The notes under the pieces are model-generated. The model was not told the DNA's origin, did not search any database, and was given only the letters and a program-made list of their open reading frames with translations. DNA of 64,000 nucleotides from Acidobacteriota bacterium. Its GTDB lineage: Bacteria; Acidobacteriota; Terriglobia; Terriglobales; SCQP01. The translations under genes and the position numbers were made by a program. Positions 26,511 to 30,438 of the stretch are shown here, one piece after another (the first letter of the stretch is position 1; each line of letters opens with the position of its first letter). The DNA lies in contig JAKASR010000019.1 of assembly GCA_021818955.1 (NCBI GenBank), positions 5,400 to 69,399 on the forward strand, read 5' to 3'.

Positions 26511-28349
26511 CTATTTTGAGTTTATCGGCTTGGTTTCGATAATTTCCAGGGGCAGCGATTCGCGCAATCGGCGGGCGGCCGGATGGTTGGCGGCGCGTTC
26601 TTCGGCTTCGCGCGCCTCGCGCGCGCGCGCTTCGAGAATGGAAGGATTCGGCGCCGAGCGCTCGATCCGGATTTCGGGCGCGAACCCCAGCGCCTGTCGC
26701 GCCGCCTGGCGCAGTTCCGTTTGCATGCTTGGGCCCTGAAACAGGGTGGCGATGCCGTCATGCTCGCCATCGAATCGCAGCACCAGCGCTTTTCCTTCCC
26801 ATGTCGCTTCCGCCTGAATGAACATCTCGTAAAGCGCCGCCCGCTTCCCGCTGAGATAGTTCCGCAAACGCTCGACCGGCGAGGCGGGTTCTTCATTCGT
26901 GGCTGCGCCATTCGCGCTGGCGCCTTCCGGAACGGAAGGGAATGGCGAGGCCGCCGGTTCAATCGCGGGCGCGGCGGGCGTGGCCGTAACCGGCGCGGCG
27001 GTCTTGATGTCGGGCGCGGGCGCAACCGCCTTCAAAGTCGCCGGATGCGATGCCTTGGCGGCGGCTTTTTCGGAAGCTTGGAGCGGCGCCGCCGCGGGTG
27101 CCGGGTTCGATGCCGGCGCCGGCTTGGCCGCCGGTTTCATCGGGGAAGCTGCGCGGCCGCCCTCCCCGCTATTCAGGTTTTTTTTTTGCGCGGCCCCGGC
27201 CGCCGCCGTCTGCTCTTGCGGCACCAGCGCTCGAATCACTTCTTCCAGGCTGGTCAGGCGCGAGGCGTGGATCAGCTTGATCAAGCCCAGTTCCAGATGC
27301 AGTCGTTCCGCCGGCGCGTGCCGCAGCTCGTTGGCGGTGCGCAGCATGATCTGCAAAAAACGGGTCAACTGCTCCTCGTTAAACCAGCCCGCGGCCTCGG
27401 CGGCCAGCATGCGGTCCTGCTCGGCCATCTCCACCACCGCATTCTCCGGCCCCAGGGCGCGGGTCACCAGCATCGCCCGCAGCCATTGCAACAACTGCCG
27501 CGCCAGTTGCGACGGGGTCACGCCCGATTGCAGCATCTCGTGCAGTTCCGCCAGCGCCCGTCCGCCATCGCCGTCGCGCACCGCGGTCACCATTTCCACC
27601 AGCCGCCGCCCCGAAACCCGCCCCAACAGTTGCCGCGCCGTATCGGCGCGCAAGCGCTCGCCATCATGCGCGATCACCTGGTCCAGGAACGAGAGGGCGT
27701 CGCGCAGCGAGCCTTCGCCGGCTTCCGCCGCCAGCTCCAGCGCCTGCGGCTCCGCTTCCAATCCCTCCGACGCGCAGATCTGGCGCAGCCGCTCCAGCGT
27801 GGTGCCGAAGCTCAGCGCCCGAAAAGCGTAATGCTGGCAGCGCGAGCGGATGGTCGCCGGCAGCGCTTCCGGCTCTGTCGTCGCCAGCACGAACATGACC
27901 CATTCCGGCGGCTCTTCCAGCGTCTTCAGCAGCGCGTTGAAGGCGTCGCTGGTGAGCTGGTGCGCCTCGTCGAGAATAAAAAATTTCGTGCGATCGCGCG
28001 CCGGCCGGTAGCGGGCGTTGTCGCGCAGTTGCCGGATCTCGTCAATGCCGCGGTTCGAGGCGGCGTCGATTTCCAGCACGTCCACCGAATTGCCTTCGGC
28101 GATCTCCACGCAGGCTTCGCATTCGCCGCAGGGCGTGGGCGTCGGCGCCGGCGAGCGCCGGCAGTTCATCGCTTTCGCCAGAATGCGGGCGATCGTGGTC
28201 TTGCCGATGCCGCGATGGCCGGAAAAGATGAAGCCGTGCGCCACCCGCCCCGTCCCCAGCGCGTTGCGCAGCGTCTCGACGATGGCATCCTGCCCGATCA
28301 CCTCGTCGAAGGTCTGCGGGCGATACTTGCGCGCCAGAACCGGCCTCAT
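26511..28349 (-). CDS. dnaX: DNA polymerase III subunit tau/gamma
   Basis: LARKYRPQTF, GHRGIGKTT, C..C..C zinc module, EIDAASNRG, LDEAH, TIRSRC. Confidence 0.97.
   Translation of the reverse strand: MRPVLARKYRPQTFDEVIGQDAIVETLRNALGTGRVAHGFIFSGHRGIGKTTIARILAKAMNCRRSPAPTPTPCGECEACVEIAEGNSVDVLEIDAASNRGIDEIRQLRDNARYRPARDRTKFFILDEAHQLTSDAFNALLKTLEEPPEWVMFVLATTEPEALPATIRSRCQHYAFRALSFGTTLERLRQICASEGLEAEPQALELAAEAGEGSLRDALSFLDQVIAHDGERLRADTARQLLGRVSGRRLVEMVTAVRDGDGGRALAELHEMLQSGVTPSQLARQLLQWLRAMLVTRALGPENAVVEMAEQDRMLAAEAAGWFNEEQLTRFLQIMLRTANELRHAPAERLHLELGLIKLIHASRLTSLEEVIRALVPQEQTAAAGAAQKKNLNSGEGGRAASPMKPAAKPAPASNPAPAAAPLQASEKAAAKASHPATLKAVAPAPDIKTAAPVTATPAAPAIEPAASPFPSVPEGASANGAATNEEPASPVERLRNYLSGKRAALYEMFIQAEATWEGKALVLRFDGEHDGIATLFQGPSMQTELRQAARQALGFAPEIRIERSAPNPSILEARAREAREAEERAANHPAARRLRESLPLEIIETKPINSK
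27178..27187 (-). promoter_or_regulatory. A10 slippage site in dnaX (predicted gamma-producing signal)
   Basis: Minus strand GCG CAA AAA AAA AAC CTG AAT AG; adding one A gives CCT GAA TAG, losing one A gives ACC TGA. Confidence 0.75.
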
Positions 28350-28452: not shown

Positions 28453-28557
28453 TCAGACTTCGGGTTTCGCGCAAGCGCCTGCCACAAACCCCGCCAGGTC
28501 CGGAAGGAAGCAACGGTAGTGGATTGGGCCCTGTGCAGCGAAGGGCCCGAAGTCTGA
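28453..28557 (+). ncRNA. ffs: Signal recognition particle RNA (4.5S)
   Basis: Conserved CAGGTCCGGAAGGAAGCA core; terminal stem tcagacttcggg / cccgaagtctga. Confidence 0.93.
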
Positions 28558-28750: not shown

Positions 28751-29755
28751 TTGCCCTCGACCCCTTACCGCGCCCGCATCTCCGCCTTGGGCAGCTATGT
28801 GCCCCCGCGCCTGCTGACCAACGACGATCTCTCCAAAATGGTGGATACCACCGATGAATGGATCCGCACCCGCACCGGCATCGCCGAGCGCCATCTGGTC
28901 GAGCCGGGCATGGCCACCAGCGATATGGCCGTCGCCGCCGCCCGCGCCTGCCTGGCCGAGCGCGGCTTCGACCCCGCCCGCCTGCGCATGCTCATCCTGG
29001 CCACCGTCACCCCCGACATGATGTTCCCTTCCACCGCCTGCCTGGTGCAGCAAAAACTCGGGGCGGAGAAGTGCTGGGGCTTTGACCTTTCCGCCGCCTG
29101 CAGCGGCTTTCTGTACGCCCTTACTACCGGCGCGCAGATGATCGCCGCCGGCGTCATCGAACACGTGCTCGTCATCGGCGCCGATACCATGTCGAGCATT
29201 ATCGATTACCAGGACCGCGCCACCTGCGTCCTCTTCGGCGATGGCGCCGGCGCGGTGCTGCTCGAACGCGCCGAACCCGGCGATGAAAACGGATTCCTCG
29301 ACTTCGTCCACCAGATCGAGGGCGAGGGCGCGGCTTATTTATATATGCCTGCCGGCGGCAGCCGTTGCCCCGCCAGCCAGGAAACCGTCGCGAAGCGCAT
29401 GCATTACGTCCATCAGGAAGGCCAGCAGGTCTTTAAATACGCCATCCGCAAAATGTACGAACTCTGTAAAGAAATACTTGATCGCAACCGGATCACTCCC
29501 GACCAGCTCGATTGCTTCATTCCCCATCAGGCCAATCAGCGCATCATTACCGCCACGGGCGAGCGCCTCGGCCTCGATCCGGAAAAGATCATCATCAATA
29601 TCGGACGCTACGGCAACACCACCGCCGGCACGATTCCGCTGGCCATGGCCGAGGCGCGCCGGCGCGGGCTGCTGCGCCCCGGCAGCCTGGTTCTGCTGGC
29701 CGCCGTCGGCGCCGGCTACACTGCCGGCGCGACGCTGTTGCGCTGGAGCGTATAA
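28751..29755 (+). CDS. fabH: 3-oxoacyl-ACP synthase III
   Basis: DTTDEWIRTRTGI.ER, AACSGF (catalytic Cys), PHQAN, GNT triad. Confidence 0.96.
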   Translation: MPSTPYRARISALGSYVPPRLLTNDDLSKMVDTTDEWIRTRTGIAERHLVEPGMATSDMAVAAARACLAERGFDPARLRMLILATVTPDMMFPSTACLVQQKLGAEKCWGFDLSAACSGFLYALTTGAQMIAAGVIEHVLVIGADTMSSIIDYQDRATCVLFGDGAGAVLLERAEPGDENGFLDFVHQIEGEGAAYLYMPAGGSRCPASQETVAKRMHYVHQEGQQVFKYAIRKMYELCKEILDRNRITPDQLDCFIPHQANQRIITATGERLGLDPEKIIINIGRYGNTTAGTIPLAMAEARRRGLLRPGSLVLLAAVGAGYTAGATLLRWSV

Positions 29756-29855
29756 ACGGCAGTGCGAAAATGAAATATTCCGCGGCAGGCTGCTAGGCTC
29801 GGCTTCTCGCCCTGCTTTTCTGCAGCTTGCTGCCGGAAGCTGATAGCTTGAAAGC

Positions 29856-30362
29856 ATGCCTCGCCATACCCCGTCTCCGGTTCCGGCCGGCGAAAACGAC
29901 ATTTCCTGGATGCGCATGGCGCTCGAGCTGGCGCAGGGAGCGCAATTGGCCGGCGAAGTGCCGGTGGGCGCGCTGGTGGTGGGGCCGCGGGGCGAGCTGC
30001 TGGGCCGGGGCTATAACCGCACCCTGCTCGAGGCCGATCCCAGCGCGCACGCCGAGATCGTGGCGCTGCGCGCAGCCGCATGGAAGCTGGGGAATCCGCG
30101 CCTGGGCGGCTGCACCCTCTATGCTACAATCGAGCCGTGCGCGATGTGCGCCGGGGCGCTGATTCAGGCCCGGATCGAGCGCCTGGTCTATGGCGCGGAT
30201 GATCCCAAAGCGGGCGCGCTGCGCTCGGTGCCTTCGCTGGCCGCGCATCCCGCCTTGAACCATTCCTTTGCGGTCACCGCCGGGGTTTTGGGCGCGGAAT
30301 GCGGCGAGTTGCTGCGGGTGTTCTTCCGCCAGCGCCGCGCGCCGGAGCGGAGAGATGCGTGA
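29856..30362 (+). CDS. tadA: tRNA adenosine(34) deaminase
   Basis: GEVPVGA, AHAE, LYATIEPCAMC. Confidence 0.94.
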   Translation: MPRHTPSPVPAGENDISWMRMALELAQGAQLAGEVPVGALVVGPRGELLGRGYNRTLLEADPSAHAEIVALRAAAWKLGNPRLGGCTLYATIEPCAMCAGALIQARIERLVYGADDPKAGALRSVPSLAAHPALNHSFAVTAGVLGAECGELLRVFFRQRRAPERRDA

Positions 30363-30438
30363 GTGGTTGAAACGGCTCGCCTCGAAAGCGAGTGTACGGG
30401 GAACCGTACCGGGGGTTCGAATCCCTCTCTCTCCGCCA
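30349..30438 (+). tRNA. tRNA-Ser: tRNA-Ser(CGA), long variable arm; prophage integration target
   Basis: GGAGAGA/TCTCTCC acceptor stem, GCCA end, anticodon arm ctcgc-ctCGAaa-gcgag, GGTTCGAATCC T-loop. Confidence 0.97.

What the first reader, a model, noticed from the sequence alone, without database searches (positions are those of the whole stretch)
27160..27200. dnaX A10 run with immediate stops in both shifted frames: predicted gamma subunit by slippage
Seen: 10 consecutive A (minus strand, codons 388-391) in a GC-rich gene, just after domain III (LELGLIKLIHA). One extra A gives ...KKKPE-stop (393 aa); one fewer gives ...KKT-stop (391 aa); full tau is 612 aa. Established: Thermus thermophilus makes gamma by transcriptional slippage on an A9 run, and E. 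coli by -1 frameshifting. No internal SD is seen upstream, favouring transcriptional slippage. Whether this is reported for this lineage I cannot check.
Basis: partly seen in the sequence, partly recalled or inferred. Interest (0 to 1): 0.62.

Follow-up and report, generated by a model that had tools for sequence, protein, structure and literature searches.

The report
Poly-A slippage site in dnaX
A run of ten A's in the replication clamp-loader gene dnaX of this uncultured acidobacterium is a conserved slip site that most likely lets one gene make both a long (tau) and a short (gamma) protein; the trick is known from Thermus and common in other phyla, so this is an ordinary new example.

Summary
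dnaX (window 26511-28349, minus strand, 612 aa) carries A10 at 27178-27187, codons 388-391, about 13 codons after domain III. One extra A gives ...QKKKPE-stop (393 aa). One fewer A gives ...QKKT-stop (391 aa).

Evidence that the run is selected:
- It is the longest A/T homopolymer in the 3.8 Mb, 62% GC genome.
- An A9 or A10 run sits at the same place in all 7 dnaX genes from five genera of this acidobacterial family. The nine shared A's are the only conserved block in a linker that otherwise does not align.
- Rare TTA and GTA codons are used to build the run.
- Both shifted frames close sooner than background.
- No Shine-Dalgarno-like motif or downstream hairpin is conserved.
- In GC-rich dnaX linkers across phyla, the longest A run is either 2-6 or 9-10, never 7-8.

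This favours Thermus-type transcriptional slippage over E. coli-type ribosomal frameshifting. The run is absent from two sister genera and from most Acidobacteriota, but common in Planctomycetota.

Verdict: first reading supported, a new member of a known kind, low to moderate interest.

The parts
26511..28349 (-). dnaX coding sequence; the zero frame encodes full-length tau (612 aa, about 66 kDa)
   Evidence: Translation is open from ATG to TAA. Pfam finds DNA_pol3_delta2, DNAX_ATPase_lid and DNA_pol3_gamma3. PDB match to E. coli gamma/tau, E 1.5e-80.
27225..28349 (-). Domains I-III (clamp-loader module), shared by tau and the predicted gamma
   Evidence: Pfam domain III is matched over its whole profile and ends at about residue 375. 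Residues 4-360 align to the crystallised E. coli gamma 5-357.
27178..27187 (-). A10 slippage run (CAA AAA AAA AAC, codons 388-391)
   Evidence: It is the longest A/T homopolymer in the genome. The nine shared A's are invariant in 7 relatives from 5 genera, and are 9 of only 12 invariant columns in 100 nt.
27173..27175 (-). TGA stop in the +1 frame; it ends the products of mRNAs with A9 or A12 (...QKKT, ...QKKKT; 391-392 aa)
27169..27171 (-). TAG stop in the -1 frame; it ends the products of mRNAs with A11 or A8, or of a -1 ribosomal shift (...QKKKPE; 393 aa, about 43.5 kDa)
26514..27177 (-). Tau-only part: a Pro/Ala-rich linker and a conserved C-terminal domain, lost in gamma
   Evidence: Relatives match query residues about 503-610 in the same frame. 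The linker is unalignable.
27141..27168 (-). Local hairpin 9 nt after the run; probably incidental
   Evidence: Minimum free energy of the 60-nt stretch is -28.7 kcal/mol, but z is only -1.21 and 29 of 200 shuffles fold as well. The same-genus relative has no structure here (-2.1 kcal/mol).

Best explanation
The A10 run is a selected, programmed slippage site of the Thermus thermophilus dnaX type.

While RNA polymerase transcribes the T10 template, the whole 9-10 bp RNA:DNA hybrid is rA:dT. The nascent RNA can therefore realign by one or more bases, and the mRNA population carries runs of different length.
- A10 or A13 messages give tau (612-613 aa), which has the C-terminal part that in E. 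coli binds the helicase and the polymerase.
- A11 messages read ...QKKKPE-stop.
- A9 or A12 messages read ...QKK(K)T-stop.

Both short forms are about 43 kDa gamma proteins. They keep domains I-III of the clamp loader and lack the tau-only part.

Shown here: the run, its frame, the stops, its position, and its nucleotide-level conservation. Inferred: that slippage happens, at what rate, and that it occurs at transcription and not on the ribosome.
For: - **Anatomy is exact.**
- **Rarity.** It is the only A/T run of 10 or more in a 3.8 Mb genome. Counts fall from 124 runs of length 8 to seven of length 9. Baranov et al. 2005 (PMC1088944) read such a drop as selection against slippage-prone runs.
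- **Conservation.** All 7 dnaX genes of genera g1, g2, g4, g5 and g7 have A9 or A10 at the same place. The nine shared A's are 9 of only 12 invariant columns in 100 nt.
- **Phase and residues vary.** The phase and the encoded residues differ between genera (QKKN, LKKKS, VKKN, QKKT), so the DNA is what is kept.
- **Rare codons.** TTA (3.6% of Leu) and GTA (6% of Val) extend the run in g2 and g5.
- **Clustering on the tree.** The run is clustered on the dnaX tree; 0 of 500 label shuffles do as well.
- **Shifted frames close early.** The -1 frame closes within 5 codons in 6 of 7 genes (background 0.07-0.15). The +1 frame closes within 9 codons in 6 of 7 (background about 0.25). Closure of both frames is the Thermus hallmark described in PMC5009743.
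- **No ribosomal stimulators.** No Shine-Dalgarno-like motif or hairpin is conserved, and two tRNA-Lys species are present.
- **Length gap.** In 107 GC-rich dnaX linkers the longest A run is 2-6 (80 genes) or 9-10 (27 genes), never 7, 8 or 11 and above.
- **Seen elsewhere.** The same architecture occurs in two other acidobacterial families and in 32 of 80 other loci, mostly Planctomycetota.
Against:
- AAA is 50% of Lys codons in this genome, so codon choice in this single gene is weak evidence (P about 0.09).
- The run is absent from sister genera g3 and g6 (18 genomes) and from 16+ genomes of the neighbouring family. Gamma made this way is therefore not essential to the lineage.
- In-phase A_AAA_AAA and A_AAA_AAC heptamers and a local hairpin 9 nt downstream leave room for some ribosomal -1 shifting.
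- In two genomes one shifted frame stays open for a long stretch (G002 -1 frame, 23 codons; G007 +1 frame, 76 codons).
Confidence: 0.7

Rival explanations
1. Gamma is made mainly by -1 programmed ribosomal frameshifting on the in-phase heptamer A_AAA_AAA or A_AAA_AAC, as in E. coli dnaX. The mRNA would be homogeneous.
For: - In-phase heptamers exist, with a -1 frame stop 2-3 codons on.
- In this genome a hairpin starts 9 nt after the run.
- The -1 frame is the one most consistently closed in relatives.
Against: - The hairpin is not significant (z -1.21) and is absent in the same-genus relative.
- No Shine-Dalgarno-like motif lies upstream in G000, G001 or G004.
- There is no AAG at the A site, and a tRNA-Lys(CUU) is present.
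- A_AAA_AAA and A_AAA_AAC are much less shifty than A_AAA_AAG in E. coli (PMC5009743).
- A heptamer would suffice for this mechanism, yet runs are always 9-10 and never 7-8.
- The +1 frame is also closed early.
Confidence: 0.15
2. The run is a neutral way of coding Lys-Lys in a disordered linker. Any slippage products are noise with no function.
For: - AAA is half of all Lys codons here.
- The linker is Pro/Ala/Lys-rich and tolerant of change.
- Two sister genera do without the run.
Against: - It is the only run of 10 or more in the genome.
- It is kept in 7 of 7 genes across five genera, with aa identity down to 54%, while every flanking column varies.
- The amino acids around it change but the A's do not, and rare TTA and GTA codons are recruited.
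- Shifted-frame stops are enriched.
- The same feature recurs at the same place in other phyla.
Confidence: 0.1
3. The run is an assembly or sequencing homopolymer error, or a DNA-level phase-variable tract. The true gene would be split or would switch on and off.
For: Homopolymers are error-prone, and this is a metagenome-assembled genome.
Against: - A10 keeps tau in frame through to a conserved C-terminal domain.
- An independent same-genus genome from another assembly has the identical A10 and frame.
- dnaX tau is essential, so on/off switching is implausible.
Confidence: 0.03

Closest known systems
Thermus thermophilus dnaX programmed transcriptional slippage on an A9 run (Larsen et al. 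2000 PNAS 97:1683, as described in PMC1088944 and PMC5009743)
   Same: - Tau is encoded in one ORF.
- A sense-strand A run of at least 9 lies after domain III.
- Stops follow closely in both non-zero frames, so every message whose run length differs from the templated one by other than a multiple of three gives a short gamma.
- No ribosomal stimulators are needed.
   Different: - The run is A10, not A9.
- The phylum is different (Acidobacteriota) and the organism is an uncultured, presumably mesophilic, MAG.
- Slippage and gamma are not demonstrated here.
- The site is patchy within the family (5 of 7 genera).
E. coli dnaX -1 ribosomal frameshift (A_AAA_AAG with an upstream Shine-Dalgarno-like motif and a downstream stem-loop; Figure 1 of PMC3711429)
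   Same: - Same gene and same outcome: gamma lacks the tau C-terminus and terminates 1-3 codons into the -1 frame.
- An A-rich in-phase heptamer is present.
   Different: - There is no AAG codon.
- No Shine-Dalgarno-like motif or stem-loop is conserved.
- The organism has two tRNA-Lys species.
- The site lies about 13 codons after domain III, not about 60.
Two-ORF dnaX genes with an A10 run, in which tau needs recoding (Antonov et al. 2013, PMC3711429)
   Same: The same A9 or A10 run sits at the same boundary. It is presumably the same slippage chemistry.
   Different: Here the zero frame gives tau and slippage gives gamma. In the two-ORF genes the zero frame gives gamma.
Caulobacter crescentus DnaX processing by ClpXP (cited in PMC5009743 and bioRxiv 10.1101/2022.11.10.516041)
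   Same: It produces a gamma-like form lacking the tau C-terminus. It is a possible route for the sister genera that lack the run.
   Different: It is post-translational and has no nucleic-acid signal.

Membership tests
Thermus-type dnaX transcriptional slippage site | Sense-strand homopolymeric A run of at least 9 in dnaX | tested here: met
   A10 at 27178-27187, minus strand.
Thermus-type dnaX transcriptional slippage site | Run lies after clamp-loader domains I-III and before the tau-only C-terminal part | tested here: met
   Pfam domain III is complete and ends about 13 codons before the run. PDB alignment to E. coli gamma. The conserved C-terminal domain lies downstream.
Thermus-type dnaX transcriptional slippage site | Tau encoded in a single zero-frame ORF | tested here: met
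   612-aa open frame through the run.
Thermus-type dnaX transcriptional slippage site | Stop codons close by in both non-zero frames | tested here: met
   TGA follows 1 codon after the run and TAG 2 codons after. Background probability of closure within 5 codons is 0.07 (-1 frame) and 0.16 (+1 frame).
Thermus-type dnaX transcriptional slippage site | Run conserved at the nucleotide level in relatives | tested here: met
   7 of 7 genes in five genera, with unalignable flanks. Absent in g3 and g6.
Thermus-type dnaX transcriptional slippage site | mRNA population heterogeneous in run length while the DNA is not | not testable with these tools
Thermus-type dnaX transcriptional slippage site | A short gamma protein is made alongside tau | not testable with these tools
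   This needs a western blot or mass spectrometry. The organism is uncultured.
E. coli-type dnaX -1 ribosomal frameshift | In-phase A_AAA_AAG heptamer | tested here: not met
   The in-phase heptamers are A_AAA_AAA and A_AAA_AAC. There is no AAG.
E. coli-type dnaX -1 ribosomal frameshift | Shine-Dalgarno-like stimulator about 10 nt upstream | tested here: not met
   No AGGA, GGAG or GAGG motif in the 30 nt upstream in G000, G001 or G004. Positions are inconsistent in the others.
E. coli-type dnaX -1 ribosomal frameshift | Conserved stem-loop 5-9 nt downstream | tested here: not met
   The local hairpin in G000 is not significant (z -1.21). z-scores across relatives range from -2.5 to +2.1, and the same-genus relative is unstructured.
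E. coli-type dnaX -1 ribosomal frameshift | A single tRNA-Lys (anticodon UUU) decodes both AAA and AAG | tested here: not met
   ARAGORN finds tRNA-Lys with anticodons CUU and UUU. The genome is 96% complete.
Two-ORF dnaX (Antonov 2013) | Zero frame stops just after the run, so tau needs recoding | tested here: not met
   The zero frame continues for 221 codons to the tau C-terminus.

The most novel reading that the evidence does not exclude
The site may follow a general design rule, and gamma may be facultative.
- In GC-rich dnaX genes of several phyla the post-domain-III A run is always 9 or 10, never 7-8 or 11 and above. This would be set by the 9-10 bp RNA:DNA hybrid of RNA polymerase.
- The run has arisen at least three times within Acidobacteriota (this family, f36 and f60).
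- It was lost in whole genera (g3, g6) of this family.

That would make this family a natural experiment on whether bacteria need gamma at all. In some lineages a nascent-RNA hairpin abutting the run (G004, and L044, L100, L062) may also tune the slippage rate.
Probability: 0.3. Interest if true: 0.4.

Novelty: new member of a known kind. Interest (0 to 1): 0.25.

Why it matters
- **Annotation.** Genome annotators call only the 612-aa tau here. If the site works, this acidobacterial lineage also makes a 43 kDa gamma clamp-loader subunit that no annotation shows.
- **Lineage.** I found no report of dnaX recoding in Acidobacteriota in the searchable literature. This extends the Thermus mechanism to another phylum.
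- **The gamma question.** The patchy distribution (five genera with the run, two without) bears on the 30-year-old question of what gamma is for (bioRxiv 10.1101/2022.11.10.516041).
- **Limits.** The mechanism and the gene are textbook cases. This scan has already met the same feature in at least 140 other genomes, so the gain is incremental.

Tried and rejected
- **Metagenome scan for length variants.** I searched for GCGCAAAAAAAAN{0,4}CCTGAWTAGC. The three hits all had A8 in unrelated, non-dnaX sequence, so they were chance matches.
- **Downstream frameshift-stimulating hairpin.** One is present in this genome but is not significant (z -1.21) and not conserved.
- **Upstream nascent-RNA hairpin.** I tested for a slippage stimulator of the kind named in the Penno et al. 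title found. Some loci are striking, but over 38 sites the percentile distribution is not different from uniform (KS p = 0.14). This genome sits at the 47th percentile.
- **Other slippery heptamers in relatives without the run.** No in-phase heptamer has a nearby -1 stop. Those lineages either lack gamma or make it another way.
- **Codon-choice argument for this gene alone.** It is weak, because AAA is 50% of Lys codons. It gains force only across genera.
- **Larsen et al. 2000.** The paper is not held, so I cite it through PMC1088944 and PMC5009743.
- My first CDS range began one codon too early, so searches count one residue more. This was corrected.

Full report
**Observation**

The minus strand of window 27178-27187 is AAAAAAAAAA. 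It lies in a gene whose product matches Pfam DNA_pol3_delta2 (E 1.5e-41), the DnaX ATPase lid, and gamma/tau domain III over the whole profile. Residues 4-360 align to residues 5-357 of crystallised E. coli gamma (1jr3, E 1.5e-80). So the gene is dnaX.

The coding sequence is 26511-28349 (minus), 612 aa, from the ATG at 28349-28347. The longer TTG-start ORF listed would run into an SRP RNA gene on the other strand (RF00169, 28458-28555). Relatives align from residue 1-2. My first range started one codon early, so residue numbers are one too high.

- The frame is CAA AAA AAA AAC, codons 388-391.
- One extra A gives ...QKKKPE-stop (393 aa).
- One fewer A gives ...QKKT-stop (391 aa).
- Two extra A's give ...QKKKT-stop (392 aa).
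- Three extra A's give tau plus one Lys.

The short forms are about 43.5 kDa and tau is about 66 kDa.

**Is it more than chance?**

The genome (3.80 Mb, 47 contigs, GC 61.9%) has 1780, 505, 124, 7 and 1 A/T runs of length 6, 7, 8, 9 and 10. The single run of 10 is this one. The 18-fold drop between 8 and 9 is the signature of selection against slippage-prone runs described by Baranov et al. 2005 (PMC1088944). Most of the seven 9-runs sit in AT-rich, apparently intergenic sequence.

**Who is it?**

The window therefore comes from an uncultured member of the Acidobacteriota.

**Conservation**

- **Within the family.** The family holds 28 species genomes, and dnaX was found in 25 of them. All seven dnaX genes of genera g1, g2, g4, g5 and g7 carry A9 or A10, about 10 to 65 codons after the last helix of domain III (most within 35). 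None of the 18 genes of g3 and g6 do, and none in the neighbouring family f2.
- **Local alignment.** In a 100-nt alignment of the seven sites, 12 columns are invariant and 9 of them are the run.
- **Coding context.** The encoded residues and the codon phase differ between genera (QKKN, LKKKS, VKKN, QKKT). In g2 and g5 the run is completed by TTA and GTA. By this genome's usage these make up 3.6% of Leu codons and 6% of Val codons. The DNA is what is kept, not the protein.
- **Tree.** On a dnaX tree the run is strongly clustered (0 of 500 label shuffles do as well). It needs at least three changes, for example one gain and two losses. The well-supported branches do not exclude a single origin.
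- **Rest of the phylum.** In one genome from each of about 50 other acidobacterial families, only two have the same feature: G161 (f60) and G080 (f36). Both have a -1 frame stop within 2-5 codons.
- **Other phyla.** Among 80 dnaX loci picked up by peptide patterns, 32 have A9 or A10 at the same place. Most are Planctomycetota (Tepidisphaerales, Pirellulales, Phycisphaerae).

**Shifted frames**

| Frame | Result from the end of the run | Background, from all positions of the same genes |
|---|---|---|
| -1 (reached by one extra A, or by a -1 ribosomal shift) | closes within 5 codons in 6 of 7 genes | 0.07-0.15 |
| +1 (one fewer A, or two extra A's) | closes within 9 codons in 6 of 7 genes | about 0.25 |

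In this genus both frames close within two codons. Early closure of both frames is what Atkins et al. 2016 (PMC5009743) describe for Thermus. It is not required if only a -1 ribosomal shift were used.

**Transcription or translation?**

Several results count against an E. coli-type signal.
- No Shine-Dalgarno-like motif lies in the 30 nt upstream in G000, G001 or G004.
- The downstream hairpin in this genome (27141-27168) is not significant: z is -1.21, and 29 of 200 dinucleotide shuffles fold as well.
- That hairpin is absent in the same-genus relative (-2.1 kcal/mol).
- No AAG codon is present.
- The genome encodes tRNA-Lys with both CUU and UUU anticodons.

One result counts in favour of RNA polymerase. 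None has 7, 8, or 11 and above. A ribosomal heptamer would be satisfied by 7. A polymerase needs the whole hybrid to be homopolymeric. Runs of 9 are the length at which slippage was shown in Thermus, according to PMC1088944 and PMC3711429.

I therefore rank transcriptional slippage first. Some ribosomal -1 shifting on the in-phase A_AAA_AAA or A_AAA_AAC heptamers cannot be excluded.

**What is known**

- Thermus thermophilus dnaX uses an A9 run with stops in both other frames (Larsen et al. 2000, as described in PMC1088944 and PMC5009743).
- E. coli uses A_AAA_AAG with two stimulators (PMC3711429, Figure 1).
- Antonov et al. 2013 (PMC3711429) described two-ORF dnaX genes, 9 of 17 with A10, in which tau needs the slip.
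- Caulobacter makes gamma by proteolysis (bioRxiv 10.1101/2022.11.10.516041).

No paper in the held library links dnaX recoding with Acidobacteria beyond a table row in Antonov et al.. Earlier notes of this scan list the same feature in at least 140 other genomes of other phyla, none of them acidobacterial. This is a new member of a known kind.

**Not done**

The decisive test is run-length heterogeneity in cDNA against DNA. A metagenome scan for length variants found only chance hits. An upstream hairpin that abuts the run in several loci is not significant overall.

**Verdict**

- The site is very probably functional (about 0.85).
- It most probably acts through transcriptional slippage (0.7 for the whole statement).
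- Interest is low to moderate, because the mechanism is established and the feature is widespread.

Noticed in passing
163 dnaX loci held in session (L001-L170): In GC-rich (at least 55%) post-domain-III segments, the longest A run is 2-6 in 80 genes or 9-10 in 27 genes. None has 7, 8, or 11 and above. AT-rich genes fill the gap with A6-A8.
   Followed up: partly
L033-L108 (loci): 32 of 80 dnaX loci from other phyla carry A9 or A10 at nt 1100-1240 of the gene. Most are Planctomycetota (Tepidisphaerales, Pirellulales, Phycisphaerae, Sedimentisphaerales). Many have the flank GGCGC-A10 and two staggered stops within 25 nt.
   Followed up: partly
L152 (G069, acidobacterial family f15): dnaX stops at about 381 aa, right after domain III, with no A run. 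It is followed directly by ybaB and recR. This may be a naturally tau-less short dnaX, or a second copy may exist elsewhere. G311 (L157) likewise ends at 483 aa before ybaB.
   Followed up: no
L169 (G038) and L170 (G263): In these two genomes of the neighbouring family, dnaX is frame-broken inside domains II-III, and the protein continues in the +1 frame. These are probably assembly indels, not recoding.
   Followed up: no
window 28458-28555 (+): A bacterial small SRP RNA gene (RF00169, 66.9 bits) lies divergently just upstream of dnaX. It overlaps the longer TTG-start ORF and so fixes the dnaX start at ATG 28349.
   Followed up: yes
window 28751-30435 (+): A fabH-like gene (ACP_syn_III, 28751-29755) is followed by a tadA-like deaminase (29856-30362) whose end overlaps a tRNA gene (30349-30435).
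   Followed up: no
L010 (G004), L044, L100, L062: Strong hairpins (9-11 bp) end 0-1 nt before the A run in some lineages. They resemble the nascent-RNA stem-loops implied by the title of the stem-loop-mediated slippage paper found. Over all sites the signal is not significant.
   Followed up: partly
genome contig C12:60229-60237: This is the only other A/T run of 9 that falls inside a long, high-GC3 stop-to-stop frame (642 codons, minus strand, T9 in the sense strand, at codon 155). It may lie in a 5' leader and not in coding sequence.
   Followed up: no
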